Made by a program: the position numbers and the translations under genes. Shown here one piece after another: positions 5,061 through 63,743 of a DNA stretch of 64,000 bases. Numbering within the stretch: position 1 is the first letter of the stretch; each line of letters begins with the position of its first letter. This stretch comes from a virus. Its lineage: Duplodnaviria > Caudoviricetes. The stretch spans positions 64,001-128,000 of the IMG/VR virus record IMGVR_UViG_3300028048_000002. One strand, 5' to 3'. The notes under the pieces are model-generated. The model was not told where the DNA came from. It saw nothing but the letters and a program-made list of their open reading frames with translations, and ran no database searches.

Positions 5061-5321
5061 TCAACACATAGTATGATTCCAAAAATCAAGCAATAACTTC
5101 CTATGTAAAATTCCACGATCATAAGGAGAAAATTCAACCTGAATAACTTTATTATTCAATGTAGATAATTGTTTTTCAGCAAAGAACTTACTAGTCCAAT
5201 TACTAATTGTTCCTACAGGAATTTTAAGTTGTTTTGAAATATCTAAAGATGTTTCTCCTGCAAGTATTCTATTGATGGCTTCAGTTCTAATTTCTTCAGA
5301 ATATATGTAATTTCTACCCAT
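5061..5321 (-). CDS. Helix-turn-helix DNA-binding protein
   Basis: YSEEIRTEAI..GETSLDISKQLKIPVGTISNW transposase/TerS-type HTH pattern. Confidence 0.6.
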   Translation of the reverse strand: MGRNYIYSEEIRTEAINRILAGETSLDISKQLKIPVGTISNWTSKFFAEKQLSTLNNKVIQVEFSPYDRGILHRKLLLDFWNHTMC

Positions 5322-5467: not shown

Positions 5468-5758
5468 TTAATAATCATATCCAAGTCTTTTATGATACTT
5501 AAGATAAGCATCAATGTCAGCTTTAAGCTCAGCTAAATTATAAGAATGACCACTTACTGTCTCTTGCAATTCATCATCTTCATCCGGATCCATCGACCAC
5601 CAATAAGATACTCCATCAATATCTCTATCTTTATACAACTCCGTCAATCTAACTTGTTGATATTTTGGAAGATTTTTAGCTACAGATTGATCTACATCAG
5701 GATTAGATGAAACTTGTATAGGTTTCCTACCTCTAGCAGCTTTGATAACTCGTTTCAT
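5468..5758 (-). CDS. MKRYIK-leader family protein (MKRVIKAA)
   Basis: Start reassigned to ATG 5758 behind GAAGGA; leader variant. Confidence 0.7.
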   Translation of the reverse strand: MKRVIKAARGRKPIQVSSNPDVDQSVAKNLPKYQQVRLTELYKDRDIDGVSYWWSMDPDEDDELQETVSGHSYNLAELKADIDAYLKYHKRLGYDY

Positions 5759-5762
5759 AATT

Positions 5763-6044
5763 CTATCCTTCATATAGTAACAAACCGTTTTTATGATCTA
5801 TATATCCAGAATCTTCGAGACTTTGCATGATGTCTTCATAAAGTTTATCTTCAAGCGCCTCTGTAAGAGTTGCATGAGTAGTGTAAAAATAATCTTGAAT
5901 TTGAGCATAAGTTTCAGATACTACATCATCATAACTAAAAGCTTCTCCACTTTCAATAAAATCTATAGTATTACTTAATGCTTCTTAATAACAAGCATCA
6001 TATACAGATTCGTTTAAACTGCTAGATTTAATATATCGTTTCAT
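5763..6044 (-). pseudogene. MKRYIK-leader gene with in-frame TAA at codon 20
   Basis: MKRYIKSSSLNESVYDACY*EALSNTIDF...LEDSGYIDHK; TAA at 5985-5987; body resembles the C-terminal domain of 6341..6796. Confidence 0.7.
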
Positions 6045-60302: not shown

Positions 60303-60758
60303 TTAAAATTCTTTTCTCCAAGTTACATAAGAACTTGCAGTTTCTCTAAGTTTTGTTTCTTTCAAATGAACATCTGAATAATTAGATTCAATAAAAGAAT
60401 CAACTACCTGAGAAATATGCTTTAAGATATTTTCTACAGACACAGAACCTCGTATTGGGTAACAACTTACATTACATGCGTTAAAGGCTGTAGTAACTAA
60501 AACTTGTTTTTGATCATTTACATCGTATAAAAATTGACCCTCAGGAGAAGCTTCCTTTAAAATTTTCTTAAAAATTTTGAAATCAATCAATTTATTTGAA
60601 GTATTATCAGGAAGACCTTGAACAGTAGCTTCGAGTTTATACTGATATGCATTTAATCTATATTTCTCAGATCCAGTATTATCTATATATTTATCTAAGT
60701 AACAGCAAGAAAACTCAGTTCTTTGAGTTACTTCTAAGGCAGCATCAGATTTTTGCAT
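60303..60758 (-). CDS. QueD/PTPS-fold protein lacking the metal-binding histidines
   Basis: TEFSCCYL, LNAYQYKLEATVQG, LIDFKIFK, SVENI, LRETASSYV follow the QueD layout. Confidence 0.55.
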   Translation of the reverse strand: MQKSDAALEVTQRTEFSCCYLDKYIDNTGSEKYRLNAYQYKLEATVQGLPDNTSNKLIDFKIFKKILKEASPEGQFLYDVNDQKQVLVTTAFNACNVSCYPIRGSVSVENILKHISQVVDSFIESNYSDVHLKETKLRETASSYVTWRKEF

Positions 60759-60796
60759 TTATATCTCCTAAATCATTACACAAAAAGATGCTAGAG

Positions 60797-60878
60797 TCCG
60801 GGTGGAGGGATTCGAACCCTCATGCTCAAAGAGCGGCAGATTTTGAGTCTGCGATGTATGCCGTTCCATCACACCCGG
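60797..60878 (-). tRNA. tRNA-Leu(CAA), no encoded CCA
   Basis: Anticodon arm GCAGA-CTCAAAA-TCTGC, long variable arm, GGTTCGAATCC. Confidence 0.85.
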
Positions 60879-60899
60879 ATTCTAGCATCTCTTTAAATT

Positions 60900-60973
60900 T
60901 GGAGCAGATGACGAGAATCGAACTCGCATCTAAAGCTTGGAAGGCTTCTATTCTACCATTGAACTACATCTGC
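60900..60973 (-). tRNA. tRNA-Gly(TCC)
   Basis: Cloverleaf, loop CTTCCAA, CCA end. Confidence 0.9.
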
Positions 60974-60974
60974 T

Positions 60975-61050
60975 TGGTAGGGGATGAAAGAATCGAACTT
61001 TCAACATACGGGTTATGAGCCCGGTGTTCTAACCATTGAACTAATCCCCC
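60975..61050 (-). tRNA. tRNA with CAT anticodon (Met or Ile2)
   Basis: Cloverleaf, loop CTCATAA, CCA end. Confidence 0.85.
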
Positions 61051-61061
61051 TCTTATAATAT

Positions 61062-61141
61062 ATCACCTTTTGATTTAAACAAATACATTGCAGAAATTTA
61101 TTTAAATCTTTAACGGACTAGCAGAATTTACCGAGGGTGAT
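61062..61141 (-). ncRNA. Unassigned three-way-junction RNA, copy A
   Basis: ATCACC-CT-CGGTAA..AGTCCG-TTAAA-[13-bp stem]-AAAA-GGTGAT; homologous to 63279..63347. Confidence 0.6.
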
Positions 61142-61191
61142 TATATCCGCTATGTAATATCTTAGTATATTATAACGATGCAAGATAGCTA

Positions 61192-61270
61192 CTAAGGAAA
61201 TACTTACGCTAGCAAAGCTGACTGAAAACAAAATTAATCTATCTGATGCAACTAGCGTATCATCACTTAG
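61192..61270 (-). ncRNA. Y RNA-like element 1
   Basis: CTAAG-TGATGA-TACGCTAG-TTGCATC...CTAGCGTA-AGTATTTC-CTTAG; motif repeated four times around the TROVE gene. Confidence 0.65.
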
Positions 61271-61343
61271 TATTTATTATATTTTCAAGGTTAATCATAT
61301 ACGTATTAACGAATAGATTATAAATTTATATAAATAAACTAGC

Positions 61344-61479
61344 TTGAGGAAACACTTAAATCAGCATTACAATAAGCGCTCTTCCAGACCTGAGCTAATG
61401 AGCACATTCATGCCTATACAGGATTCGAACCTGTGACCTCTCGATTTCCATTCGATGCAACTGATTTATCATCACTCAA
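61344..61479 (-). ncRNA. YrlA-type Y RNA with permuted tRNA-like domain
   Basis: Same terminal module enclosing T arm (CAGGTTCGAATCCTG), a closed acceptor-like stem, then D arm (TAGCTCAG..GGAAGAGC). Confidence 0.75.
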
Positions 61480-61495
61480 ACAACTTATTTAATTA

Positions 61496-62971
61496 TCAAT
61501 ATACGTAATATCTTACTATATCTAATAACGATTTTGTTTCATCCTCTTGAATTTCAATTATCTTAAACACAACATCTGTAAGTGCTGTGATATATGAAAT
61601 ATCAGATCGCGTTGAAACAACTTGACTATGATAGTTTCCAAGGTCAAAGCTATAAATGTGAGAGGGTCCGTAGTTATCTACATATTTCCTCCATAAGCTG
61701 TTTGCAGACCTGCTACTATCTGCGTAGTACGACCATCGACTACCATCCATAACTTGCATATCTGAAAACAAGAATACTCTGTCATAATGCTTATCTAACA
61801 TATTGAATACTGTTGAAATTTCAGTACCATATCCAAGACCCTCGTTTTTTGCAAGCATTGAAATTAACTTAAATTGATTGCCTGCTGTAAACGTATCTTT
61901 TTTCCACTTCTTAGCCTTCGTCCCAAATTTAATAAAATCAACATTAGACCTAAATCCAGAAACTAAGAATGCAGAAGCATAAACTGCACACAATTCTTTA
62001 ATCGTCAAAGAACTGTTCTGGCTAAATCGAGAATCCATAGACCCGGAAACATCAAGGACTACAAGTGTATTCCCGTCAAGATACGGCATATTTCCTGTGG
62101 AAATCTCAAACGCTTCTGACAATGCTGTCTCAACATAGAGCCCAATTCCTTCTTGGTTAAGCGTCTTCCAAGCAGTGTAAATTTGAAGCGGCCAAACTAG
62201 TGATTTCTTGATTGCAGCCTCATTTATAATTTGAGGGACAAGGTTCTCTTTGATCCAAGAACTGGAAGCAAAAGAACATTTGCAGATATTACGAAGATTT
62301 CTGAGAAGTGCAAGATACCCGAGCTTTTTCTCTTCAACCAAACGCTTCCATTCTGATTCTTTTTCTTCCACTGATTTCGCTGAAGAAATTTTTACTTCCC
62401 AAGTATCCGGAGTCTCTAAGGTTCCTTTCTGATATTGATCTATTGCATCAGATTTTGCATGAGTGATATTGATGATATCATGCATGTTATATTTATGATT
62501 TCGCATAGGATATTTGCCAATTTGATAGGCTGAGAGCGAACTGAGGTAATCCGCAACCCCTCGGATTAAAGCATGAGAACGCTTACCACCGAGATGATCT
62601 ACAGCAGCAAATACTTCACCTACACCATCAGGTCGATGAAAATACTTAGCATAAAAATTGCGCTTATCTTTCCACTGGACGCCATTGAGTATAGCGGCAG
62701 TAAGCTCAGAAATTGAACGCATTCCAAGTTCATTACGTGCATATACAGCAGCTGTACCTATGAGCTCTGGAGAATATTTAGAAATCATTTGGTTAGTCAA
62801 ATCTACAAACCTAGATTCTTGTTCCTCAGCTGACTCGTAGAATCGAGGTTGAAGAATTGAAGAAAAGATTGCGTTACTCCATTCATCCTCTAGATACTTT
62901 GAGTATGCTACTCCTCCCTCAAAAGTAGCAGTTTTCCGAACGTTGATGTTCTTTTCATTGAACTTGCTCAT
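61496..62971 (-). CDS. TROVE-domain / Ro60 (Rsr) RNA-binding protein with vWA domain
   Basis: TFEGGVAY, YARNELGMRS, TPDTWE, LGYLALLRNLRN, VLDVSGSM (MIDAS), GYGT, FSDMQ. Confidence 0.9.
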   Translation of the reverse strand: MSKFNEKNINVRKTATFEGGVAYSKYLEDEWSNAIFSSILQPRFYESAEEQESRFVDLTNQMISKYSPELIGTAAVYARNELGMRSISELTAAILNGVQWKDKRNFYAKYFHRPDGVGEVFAAVDHLGGKRSHALIRGVADYLSSLSAYQIGKYPMRNHKYNMHDIINITHAKSDAIDQYQKGTLETPDTWEVKISSAKSVEEKESEWKRLVEEKKLGYLALLRNLRNICKCSFASSSWIKENLVPQIINEAAIKKSLVWPLQIYTAWKTLNQEGIGLYVETALSEAFEISTGNMPYLDGNTLVVLDVSGSMDSRFSQNSSLTIKELCAVYASAFLVSGFRSNVDFIKFGTKAKKWKKDTFTAGNQFKLISMLAKNEGLGYGTEISTVFNMLDKHYDRVFLFSDMQVMDGSRWSYYADSSRSANSLWRKYVDNYGPSHIYSFDLGNYHSQVVSTRSDISYITALTDVVFKIIEIQEDETKSLLDIVRYYVY

Positions 62972-62984
62972 TGCAATCACTCCT

Positions 62985-63049
62985 TACAAGGAAACTTATG
63001 TAGAAAGTAGCTTCTCCTATACGATGTAACTCTCTACTCATCACTTGCA
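62985..63049 (-). ncRNA. Y RNA-like element 3, abutting the Ro60 RBS
   Basis: GCAAG-TGATGA-GTAGAGAG-TTACATC...CTTTCTAC-ATAAGTTTC-CTTGT then AAGGAG. Confidence 0.65.
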
Positions 63050-63060
63050 TCAATGGAAAT

Positions 63061-63146
63061 TTAGATGCTGGAAATAACTTAATCAGATAAAGTAGCATAA
63101 TTTCAAGTTATCTATGAAGTAACTGATCAATCATCACAGCATCTAA
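63061..63146 (-). ncRNA. Y RNA-like element 4
   Basis: TTAGATGCTG-TGATGA-TTGATCAG-TTACTTC...CTGATTAA-GTTATTTC-CAGCATCTAA. Confidence 0.65.
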
Positions 63147-63270: not shown

Positions 63271-63278
63271 GCATTATT

Positions 63279-63347
63279 TATGCCTTTTGCAATAGCTACC
63301 GAAGCAACTAAGCTTTAACAGACTCTCCGAAGATTACTGAGGGCATA
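63279..63347 (-). ncRNA. Unassigned three-way-junction RNA, copy B
   Basis: TATGCC-CT-CAGTAA-TCTTCGGAG-AGTCTG-TTAAA-[stem, cUUCGg]-AAAA-GGCATA. Confidence 0.6.
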
Positions 63348-63361
63348 TACTGAATAACTAT

Positions 63362-63665: not shown

Positions 63666-63668
63666 AAC

Positions 63669-63743
63669 TGGTGCCCCTTGTAGGACTCGAACTCACGGTC
63701 TTAGTATTAAAAGTCCTTTCTTTGCCAACTAAGCTACGGAGTC
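63669..63743 (-). pseudogene. Degenerate tRNA-Lys(TTT)
   Basis: Similar to the adjacent tRNA-Lys but acceptor, anticodon and T stems mispaired; CCA retained. Confidence 0.6.

What the first reader, a model, noticed from the sequence alone, without database searches (positions are those of the whole stretch)
61192..63146. Phage-encoded Ro60 flanked by four Y-RNA-like elements inside a tRNA island
Seen: four elements (61192, 61344, 62985, 63061) share stem-GUGAUGA-8 bp stem-UU(G/A)C(A/U)UC...stem-(A/G/U-rich)UUUC-stem. Stem sequences differ but stay complementary, and each carries a different insert. Two lie on each side of the TROVE gene. Established: bacterial Ro60 binds Y RNAs encoded beside it, functioning in RNA decay and stress or repair. 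Inference: a modular RNP with one protein and four interchangeable RNAs, possibly countering host tRNA-targeting defences.
Basis: partly seen in the sequence, partly recalled or inferred. Interest (0 to 1): 0.8.

Follow-up and report, generated by a model that had tools for sequence, protein, structure and literature searches.

The report
Phage Ro60 with four Y RNAs
A complete 163-kb phage encodes the RNA-surveillance ring protein Ro60 flanked by four small RNAs that share one conserved, covarying "handle" but carry different inserts; they form a divergent, uncatalogued branch of the known Y RNA partners of Ro60, also present in cultured phages such as crAss001 and Bacillus phage G.

Summary
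Four minus-strand elements lie at 61190-61272, 61342-61481, 62984-63050 and 63064-63146. They share this plan: a 7-10 bp stem, a bulged U, 2 bp, a U-rich asymmetric loop, an 8-9 bp stem, UU(A/G)C(A/U)UC, then a variable insert. They are the only four copies in the complete 162,817-bp phage genome.

A covariance model finds the same handle at more than 130 sites beside Ro60 genes of phages and bacteria. Every site is on the Ro60 strand. About 91% of cells are paired (about 47% when the partners are slid), and every pair shows compensatory changes.

The protein is a true Ro60 by Pfam, fold and MIDAS motif. Element B is a YrlA-type permuted tRNA mimic. A, C and D are short, YrlB-like forms.

Phage Ro60 with several Y RNAs is already known (Chen 2014; Thermus phage phiLo 2025). 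New here are the handle sequence, which lacks the canonical CGAA motif and falls below Rfam's YrlA threshold; arrays of up to seven copies; and whole tRNAs as cargo in relatives.

Ro60 binding is inferred, not shown. The anti-defence idea has no support.

This scan has already reported similar handle-plus-cargo arrays beside Ro60-like genes on other DNA.

The parts
63061..63146 (-). Y-RNA-like element D. Outer stem of 10 bp, bulged U, 2 bp, internal loop, 8-bp stem, UUACUUC, 35-nt insert. It lies 51 nt downstream of tRNA-Gln.
   Evidence: fold z -3.1; 69 bits; 65 bits, E 5e-14
62984..63050 (-). Y-RNA-like element C. It has the smallest insert (22 nt). The 3' strand of its outer stem runs into the Ro60 Shine-Dalgarno sequence AAGGAG (62985-62980).
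   Evidence: E 3e-4, not in the seed; 39 bits, E 7e-7
61496..62971 (-). Ro60 / TROVE protein, 491 aa, with ATG at 62971-62969. HEAT-repeat ring plus a vWA domain with an intact MIDAS motif.
   Evidence: Pfam TROVE 8e-16. PHROG 850. Family profile against PDB: 9KOP 1.7e-40, 1YVP 4e-10. AF2 model pLDDT 81.7, TM 0.63-0.74 to Ro60 structures. Invariant D307, S309, S311, T383 and D404.
61342..61481 (-). Y-RNA-like element B. Same handle, carrying a permuted tRNA-like domain: T arm, closed acceptor-like stem, D arm. This is the YrlA architecture. It starts 14 nt after the Ro60 stop codon.
   Evidence: Rfam YrlA 28.9 bits, E 0.0014, below the gathering score of 69. R1 34.9 bits, not in the seed. R2 43.5 bits. 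Sequence read.
61190..61272 (-). Y-RNA-like element A. Same handle, with a 38-nt insert that forms a weak hairpin.
   Evidence: fold z -2.3; 63 bits; 56.5 bits
63197..63665 (-). Upstream half of the tRNA island: Lys(UUU), Ser(UGA), Thr(UGU), Gln(UUG).
60796..61050 (-). Downstream half of the tRNA island: Met(CAU), Gly(UCC), Leu(CAA).

Best explanation
The four elements are phage-encoded Y RNAs, the non-coding RNA partners of the Ro60 ring protein encoded between them. Each consists of a constant docking handle and a variable second module. The handle is formed by the RNA's own 5' and 3' ends. It comprises a 7-10 bp helix ending in G-C, a bulged U, two more base pairs, a U-rich asymmetric internal loop, an 8-9 bp helix, and then a nearly invariant single-stranded UUACUUC. 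It has the same topology as the Ro60-binding stem of bacterial YrlA. Its bulge-plus-GA core resembles the Ro60-contacted GGUC[C]GA of animals and GN[C]GAA of bacteria. Its UUAC occupies the position of the conserved YUAY kink of YrlA. Element B carries a tRNA-shaped module of YrlA type. A, C and D carry short, mostly unstructured loops of YrlB type. Inferred mechanism: the RNAs are made from the same strand as the tRNA island and the Ro60 gene, probably as part of its transcripts. Ro60 binds the handle on its outer surface. The second module then either tethers Ro60 to a partner, such as host PNPase or a tRNA-binding enzyme for B, or simply occupies and gates the ring. Element C, whose helix abuts the Ro60 ribosome-binding site, may additionally couple Ro60 synthesis to the amount of free Ro60. 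Shown here: the family, its structure, its genomic linkage to Ro60, and the identity of the protein. Inferred: binding, expression, partners and biological role.
For: Structure: on 86 distinct family members, 91.7% of cells form pairs, against 54% in shuffles and 47-51% with slid partners. All 18 pairs show compensatory changes. The two pairs after the bulged U were not part of the search model, yet they pair in 80/81 and 84/85 sequences and switch GA:UC, GG:CC, AG:CU and GU:AC.

Linkage to Ro60: all 93 hits in 80 Ro60-centred phage loci lie on the Ro60 strand and upstream of the gene. All 36 hits in 80 bacterial or MAG Ro60 loci lie on the Ro60 strand. Hits also lie beside the TROVE genes of crAss001, Bacillus phage G and a 635-kb phage.

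RNA-first test without Ro60 ascertainment: of 15 pattern hits in IMG/VR that pass the helix check, 13 lie on contigs that encode Ro60. The other two lie on fragments that are 15% and 64% complete. In contrast, 62 of 65 chance hits have no Ro60.

Kinship with YrlA: the long-insert members score below threshold on Rfam YrlA (window B 28.9 bits; L026 37.7; L054 34.8; L003 34.3). The Rfam YrlA consensus has the same layout: a 6-bp stem, a 5/8-nt internal loop, a 7-bp stem, then CUAC. YUAY is conserved in YrlA (PMC4201824), and its UA forms a conserved kink (bioRxiv 10.1101/312249).

Protein: a full-length Ro60 fold.

Precedent: Thermus phage phiLo Ro60 binds two upstream Y-like RNAs and forms a complex with host PNPase (PMC12135203). 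[quoted passage not shown]
Against: There are no expression or binding data for this phage. The canonical Ro60-recognition motif GNCGAAN0-1G / CGAA is absent from the handle; it reads UGAYGR instead. No element reaches Rfam's YrlA gathering score. In one related clade the arrays lie about 17 kb from Ro60 and on the other strand, so adjacency is not obligatory. Some scaffolds carry complete tRNAs, which a pre-tRNA processing role could explain equally well. No promoter or terminator signal stands out above shuffles.
Confidence: 0.8

Rival explanations
1. The handle is a processing or stability cassette of phage tRNA operons. In this reading a leader-trailer helix is recognised by RNase III, RNase P, RNase Z or another factor and marks small RNAs and tRNAs for excision or protection. 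Its link with Ro60 would then be only that both sit in tRNA islands.
For: Complete tRNAs that score above Rfam's tRNA threshold sit inside the handle in relatives: L018 58.4 bits, L073 57.7, L034 39.5. Copies are packed 8-17 nt apart, like a polycistronic precursor. In one clade, arrays of 4-7 copies sit beside tRNA-Leu about 17 kb from Ro60. M. smegmatis YrlA is cleaved by RNase P (PMC4201824).
Against: Ordinary tRNAs in the same islands have no such handle. The handle is found next to Ro60 in bacteria and phages whether or not tRNAs are nearby, for example L003, L054 and L037, which have no tRNA within 3 kb. In the RNA-first search, handle-bearing contigs carry Ro60 in 13 of 15 cases. The invariant UACUUC and the bulged helix point to a specific protein ligand and match YrlA's layout.
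Confidence: 0.08
2. The RNAs are decoys or shields against host tRNA-targeting defences such as anticodon nucleases. In this reading they display tRNA or anticodon-loop look-alikes on a Ro60 platform.
For: The location is inside the phage's only tRNA island. B mimics the tRNA elbow. The insert of D can form a 4-bp hairpin whose 7-nt loop, CUUGAAA, equals the anticodon loop of the phage tRNA-Ser(UGA). Some relatives carry whole tRNAs as cargo.
Against: B lacks an anticodon arm altogether. Across 52 distinct short inserts, anticodon-like 7-nt loops are not enriched: 1 observed, and 13 of 100 shuffles reach that number. Most inserts are predicted to be unfolded. The hairpin in D is not stable on its own. 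The phage has no RtcB, and the only RNA-ligase-family hit is a sub-threshold match (17.9 bits, cut-off 27) inside a 674-aa frame of unassigned function.
Confidence: 0.07
3. The elements are cis-acting leader and trailer structures of the Ro60 mRNA that control its translation or stability, rather than free-standing small RNAs.
For: The helix of C abuts the Shine-Dalgarno sequence. B starts 14 nt after the stop codon. In 8 loci of the closest clade the last copy ends 8-17 nt before the start codon, with the ribosome-binding site at or inside the 3' strand of the helix.
Against: This cannot explain arrays of 4-7 copies far from Ro60 and on the other strand. It cannot explain tRNA-like or tRNA cargo, or copies separated from the gene by 100-760 nt. 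At most it is an extra role for the copy nearest the gene.
Confidence: 0.05

Closest known systems
YrlA / YrlB Y RNAs of bacteria and phages with Rsr (Ro60) (Rfam RF02553; Chen et al. 2014, PMC4201824)
   Same: They are encoded next to Ro60 on the same strand. The 5' and 3' ends pair into a long stem interrupted by an asymmetric internal loop. A YUAY motif follows the stem. One RNA per genome carries a permuted tRNA-like domain (T arm, closed acceptor-like stem, D arm), and the others are short hairpin forms. There are several Y RNAs per genome.
   Different: The handle reads G-U-GA-YGR ... UUACUUC ... UUUC-C instead of GNCGAAN0-1G. A covarying bulged-U helix is evident. No member reaches the Rfam gathering score (best 37.7 bits against 69). 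Copy number reaches 4-7 per genome. Some relatives carry a complete, unpermuted tRNA as cargo.
Thermus phage phiLo Ro60 with Yrl1 and Yrl2 (NAR 2025, PMC12135203; PDB 9KOP, 9L5Y)
   Same: A phage-encoded Ro60 with more than one Y-like RNA gene beside it. This is the closest solved structure to this protein family (E 1.7e-40; TM 0.67-0.71). It provides experimental precedent for binding and for a complex with host PNPase.
   Different: The phiLo RNAs were identified by their CGAA motif, and my model finds no hit at that locus. There are two RNAs, both upstream, against four here, two on each side. Protein identity is about 22-27%.
Animal Y RNAs with Ro60 (Xenopus Y3-Ro60 structure 1YVP)
   Same: A terminal helix with a bulged pyrimidine followed by G-A, as in GGUC[C]GA, serves as the Ro60 site. 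A variable second module binds other proteins. There are two to four paralogous Y RNAs per species.
   Different: There is no sequence similarity beyond the bulge-GA core. The second modules and the transcription system differ.
Handle-plus-cargo RNA arrays beside Ro60-like or DUF2828-type proteins, reported earlier by this scan on other phages (e1-5935525, e1-5790182, e1-5378700, e1-5635721)
   Same: They have the same logic: tandem small RNAs with one constant handle and different, often tRNA-like, inserts next to a Ro60-type ring protein.
   Different: Those notes describe other handle motifs, such as CWGCAA or YACAGC, and very diverged Ro60-like proteins. Here the protein is a plain Pfam TROVE Ro60 and the handle is the UGAYGR/UUACUUC type. 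I did not compare the handles directly.

Membership tests
Ro60 / Rsr (TROVE) protein | TROVE domain detectable by sequence | tested here: met
   Pfam PF05731 at 8.2e-16, 58.6 bits against a cut-off of 23. The family profile hits Ro60 chains 9KOP, 1YVP, 9NEN and 2NVO.
Ro60 / Rsr (TROVE) protein | HEAT-repeat ring plus a C-terminal vWA domain with a MIDAS motif | tested here: met
   The AF2 model (pLDDT 81.7) aligns over its full length to Ro60 structures at TM 0.63-0.74. D307-x-S309-x-S311, T383 and D404 are invariant in 30 relatives.
Y RNA (generic) | The 5' and 3' ends pair into a long stem with a bulged helix, and the rest is a variable module | tested here: met
   Two helices and a bulged U, with 18 covarying pairs. 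Inserts range from 18 to 115 nt.
Y RNA (generic) | Encoded near Ro60 and on the same strand (bacterial and phage Y RNAs) | tested here: met
   Window: 14 nt downstream and 13 nt upstream of the gene. All 137 model hits in Ro60-centred loci lie on the Ro60 strand.
Y RNA (generic) | Physically bound and stabilised by Ro60 | not testable with these tools
   Needs EMSA or RIP with the phage protein.
YrlA (Rfam RF02553) | Score at or above the curated gathering threshold of 69 bits | tested here: not met
   Element B scores 28.9 bits. Relatives score 29-38 bits. None passes at the gathering threshold in the window or in 18 bacterial or MAG Ro60 loci.
YrlA (Rfam RF02553) | GNCGAAN0-1G motif in the 5' strand of the stem | tested here: not met
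   The handle reads (A/C)G-U-GA-UGA. Only the pyrimidine-GA core is shared. B has a CGAA further in, but it is not conserved in the family.
YrlA (Rfam RF02553) | Conserved YUAY after the stem, followed by a T arm, a closed acceptor-like stem and a D arm | tested here: met
   This holds for element B only: UUGC, then the T arm ACAGG-UUCGAAU-CCUGU, a closed stem, and the D arm GCUC-AGGUCUGGAA-GAGC. UUAC is nearly invariant in the family. A, C and D lack the tRNA-like part.
Box C/D (k-turn) RNA | RUGAUGA paired with a conserved CUGA box | tested here: not met
   The snoR41 hit scores 21 bits against 40. CUGA is present in only 2 of the 4 elements, as part of a variable stem, and is not conserved in relatives.

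The most novel reading that the evidence does not exclude
The handle is a general Ro60 docking tag that phages attach to any RNA cargo, from nothing, through a T arm and a permuted tRNA mimic, to a whole functional tRNA. The phage Ro60 would then be a chaperone, sorter or shield for the phage's own tRNA-like RNAs, or a display platform for decoys against host tRNA-directed immunity, rather than a decay factor. The series of cargo types would also document how Y RNAs arise from tRNA genes.
Probability: 0.12. Interest if true: 0.85.

Novelty: new variant of a known kind. Interest (0 to 1): 0.55.

Why it matters
Ro60 and Y RNAs are a conserved RNA-surveillance particle and a major human autoantigen. 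Their role in phages is almost unstudied; only the Thermus phage phiLo system has been examined.

This work defines a handle that Rfam's YrlA model does not capture at its curated threshold. The handle marks candidate Ro60 partner RNAs in large gut-type phages, in Bacteroidota chromosomes and in two cultured phages: crAss001, whose TROVE gene is an early gene with no known RNA partner (PMC8375218), and Bacillus phage G. That makes the phage Ro60 question directly testable in the laboratory.

The bulged-U helix with two covarying pairs and the invariant UACUUC give precise mutations for binding studies. Relatives with whole tRNAs inside the handle bear on the proposal that YrlA evolved from tRNA transcripts.

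Tried and rejected
I therefore could not inspect the closest Ro60 relatives (70-82% identity, P0002-P0005), and covariation rests on relatives at 51% identity or less.

A single-protein scan of IMG/VR found nothing; the profile scan worked. The exact sequence pattern alone is rarely conserved in relatives, so a covariance model was needed.

Rfam finds only tRNAs at the gathering threshold.

Box C/D or k-turn reading: rejected (CUGA is not conserved).

Anticodon stem-loop decoy idea: not supported by the loop statistics.

RNA-repair context: there is no RtcB, and only a weak ligase-family hit.

Sigma-70 promoters and intrinsic terminators are not above shuffles. A 20-nt repeat lies upstream of B and downstream of A (D13), but a longer consensus built from it gave only one hit.

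The weak model hit at 2677-2765 lies inside a tail-fibre gene and is taken as chance.

The resemblance to Dictyostelium Class I RNAs raised in earlier scan notes could not be checked, because the held paper does not print the 11-nt motif.

Two reviews (PMC10870794, PMC6047535) and the supplements of Chen 2014 are not held. I therefore cannot exclude that some members, for example those of Bacillus phage G, were already listed there as YrlA.
Full report
WHAT IS THERE. The window is part of a complete phage genome: 162,817 bp, with direct terminal repeats, and the window covers 64001-128000. In its last 8 kb every gene is on the minus strand. These are family A DNA polymerase, SSB, a QueD-like protein, three tRNAs, the Ro60 locus and four more tRNAs. 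The polymerase is most similar to those of Clostridium, Streptococcus and Bacillus phages. The closest Ro60 genes in genome collections sit on MAG contigs binned as Bacilli, Bacillales or Clostridium. A Bacillota host is therefore likely.

THE PROTEIN. ORF 61496-62971(-) has its ATG at 62971-62969 and AAGGAG 8 nt upstream. It matches Pfam TROVE. A profile of 30 relatives hits the Ro60 of Thermus phage phiLo (E 1.7e-40) and the Ro60 of Xenopus, human and Deinococcus. An AlphaFold model (pLDDT 81.7) superposes over its full length on those structures at TM 0.63-0.74. The MIDAS residues are invariant. It is a bona fide Ro60.

THE FOUR RNAS. On the minus strand the elements are:
- D at 63146-63061
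- C at 63050-62984
- B at 61481-61342
- A at 61272-61190

All four have the same plan: an outer helix, UGAUGA, an 8-bp helix, UU(G/A)C(A/U)UC, an insert, the return strand of the 8-bp helix, 8-9 nt ending in UUUC, and the return strand of the outer helix. The sequence pattern alone occurs four times in 64 kb, and only there. The refined covariance model finds exactly these four in the whole genome.

COMPARATIVE EVIDENCE. The Ro60 family has thousands of members. A profile scan of IMG/VR returned 80 loci. A descriptor scan showed the same architecture in tandem copies just upstream of Ro60 in many of them, with completely different stem sequences.

Model R1 was built from nine copies. It found window elements B and C, which were not in the seed, and gave 52 hits in the loci. 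Model R2, built from those hits, gave 93 hits. Every one lies on the Ro60 strand and upstream of the gene, with up to five per locus.

Pair counts show 91-92% of cells paired, against 51-54% in shuffles and 38-51% with slid partners. Compensatory changes occur at every pair.

Inspection of the '6-nt loop' showed that it is a bulged U followed by two more pairs. These switch together: GA:UC, GG:CC, AG:CU, GU:AC and UG:UA. The two pairs were not in the model's structure, yet they pair in 80/81 and 84/85 distinct sequences.

The consensus handle is: a 7-bp helix ending in G-C; a bulged U; 2 bp; an asymmetric U-rich loop (3 nt against 6-7 nt); an 8-9 bp helix; and then W-U-A-C-U-U-C, of which UACUUC is almost invariant.

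BREADTH. The model also hits the following:
- Two sites in the gene-free gap just downstream of the TROVE gene gp96 of crAss001.
- Five sites in the gap upstream of the TROVE gene gp540 of Bacillus phage G.
- One site upstream of the Ro60 of a 635-kb uncultured phage.
- Nothing at the phiLo locus.
- 36 sites in bacterial or MAG Ro60 loci, including Saprospiraceae, Mucilaginibacter, Xanthocytophaga and Prevotellaceae. All are on the Ro60 strand, either upstream or downstream of the gene.

One phage clade (Ro60 at 48% identity) has no copy near Ro60. Its arrays of 4-7 copies lie about 17 kb away on the other strand, beside tRNA-Leu.

An RNA-first search removes the Ro60 ascertainment. I looked for a sequence pattern in all IMG/VR contigs and then applied a helix check. 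Of 15 structure-positive hits, 13 lie on Ro60-encoding contigs and 2 lie on incomplete fragments. Of the 65 pattern-only hits, 62 have no Ro60 nearby.

RELATION TO KNOWN Y RNAS. The Rfam YrlA consensus has the same layout: a 6-bp stem, a 5/8-nt internal loop, a 7-bp stem, CUAC, and then the tRNA-like part.

Chen et al. 2014 describe a GNCGAAN0-1G motif in the 5' strand that resembles the animal GGUCCGA. They also describe a conserved YUAY after the stem, at least two Y RNAs per bacterium, and YrlA in 22 phages. The UA of YUAY forms a conserved kink.

In the present family UUAC sits at the YUAY position. The bulged pyrimidine plus GA echoes [C]GA, but the CGAA motif itself is absent. No member reaches the YrlA gathering score.

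Long-insert members, including window element B, carry a T arm, a closed acceptor-like stem and a D arm, and score 29-38 bits on YrlA. Short members resemble YrlB.

Phage Ro60 with two upstream Y-like RNAs that bind it, and a complex with host PNPase, were shown for phage phiLo in 2025. The kind is therefore known, and this is a distinct variant.

CARGO. Inserts fall into four classes:
- tRNA-like with T and D arms
- T arm only
- short, A/U-rich and mostly unfolded
- in some relatives, a complete unpermuted tRNA that ARAGORN and Rfam both call: Lys(UUU) at 58.4 bits, Pro(UGG) at 57.7 bits and Ile(UAU) at 39.5 bits

Anticodon-loop look-alikes are not enriched among the short inserts.

HOW IT MOST LIKELY WORKS. 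Ro60 docks on the handle. The second module decides what the particle does: B would tether it through its tRNA-shaped domain, and A, C and D would act as gates or other tethers. This follows the established modular model of Y RNAs and the phiLo precedent. It is an inference for this phage.

The helix of C runs into the Ro60 Shine-Dalgarno sequence. The same holds in eight related loci. This suggests, weakly, feedback on Ro60 translation.

The phage has no RtcB, so the Salmonella-type repair-operon context is absent.

LIMITS. There are no expression or binding data. The strand-specific and position-specific clustering, and the pairs that were not modelled yet covary, make chance or alignment artefact very unlikely.

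This scan has already reported comparable handle-plus-cargo arrays beside Ro60-like genes in other genomes. The general phenomenon is therefore recurrent. The present case is the version with a canonical TROVE protein and a UGAYGR/UUACUUC handle.

Noticed in passing
window 61051-61150 (-) and 63271-63361 (-): Two gene-free stretches lie immediately 5' of tRNA-Met and tRNA-Gln. They share a 3' block, CAAAAGG(U/C)(G)AUA, and an outer helix that differs in sequence but stays complementary (AUCACC/GGUGAU against AUGCC/GGCAU). They may be a second small-RNA type or a pre-tRNA leader. Earlier scan notes e1-5688151 and e1-5688159 flagged this as well.
   Followed up: partly
window 61151-61170 and 61502-61521 (minus strand reading ATATA(C/G)TAAGATATTAC(A/G)TA): A 20-nt repeat at 90% identity lies about 20 nt upstream of element B. 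A second copy lies about 20 nt downstream of element A, in front of the 61051-61150 stretch. It may be a phage promoter or a processing signal. A CGTTAT box also precedes D, B and A at varying distances.
   Followed up: partly
window 63667-63742 (-): A degenerate near-copy of the neighbouring tRNA-Lys gene (77-88% identity over two blocks) that ARAGORN and Rfam do not call. An earlier follow-up (e1-5688160) attributes this region to an endonuclease cassette that split a tRNA gene.
   Followed up: no
L073:1489-1905 and L074:1720-2134: GOLLD RNA (RF02032, 277-281 bits) lies about 1 kb upstream of Ro60, between handle-type RNAs and tRNAs, in two distant phage contigs. GOLLD, Y-like RNAs, tRNAs and Ro60 thus share one island.
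   Followed up: no
L093 (Bacteroides phage crAss001, NC_049977) 5093-5176 and 5669-5808; L096 (Bacillus phage G) 1707-2343: These cultured phages carry the same handle family in unannotated gaps beside their TROVE genes. In crAss001 a 144-nt stretch that scores 46.6 bits on the tRNA model lies between the two copies.
   Followed up: partly
G002:C1:25904-27530 and equivalents in G001, G003-G005 (contigs of L011, L012, L013, L016, L022): One clade of about 140-kb phages has arrays of 4-7 handle RNAs next to tRNA-Leu(CAA), unlinked from Ro60 (about 17 kb away, on the other strand). In these phages the Ro60 gene has its own TTGACA-N17-TATAAT promoter.
   Followed up: partly
L110 and L112 (Saprospiraceae MAG contigs), 1-2960: Arrays of roughly 12-18 tRNA genes lie directly upstream of Ro60 and a handle RNA on long contigs assigned to bacteria. 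Ro60 sitting in tRNA arrays is therefore not confined to phages, or else these are integrated elements.
   Followed up: no
window 60303-60758 (-): A QueD-like (6-pyruvoyl-tetrahydropterin synthase fold) gene lies directly downstream of the tRNA island (Pfam 9e-8).
   Followed up: no
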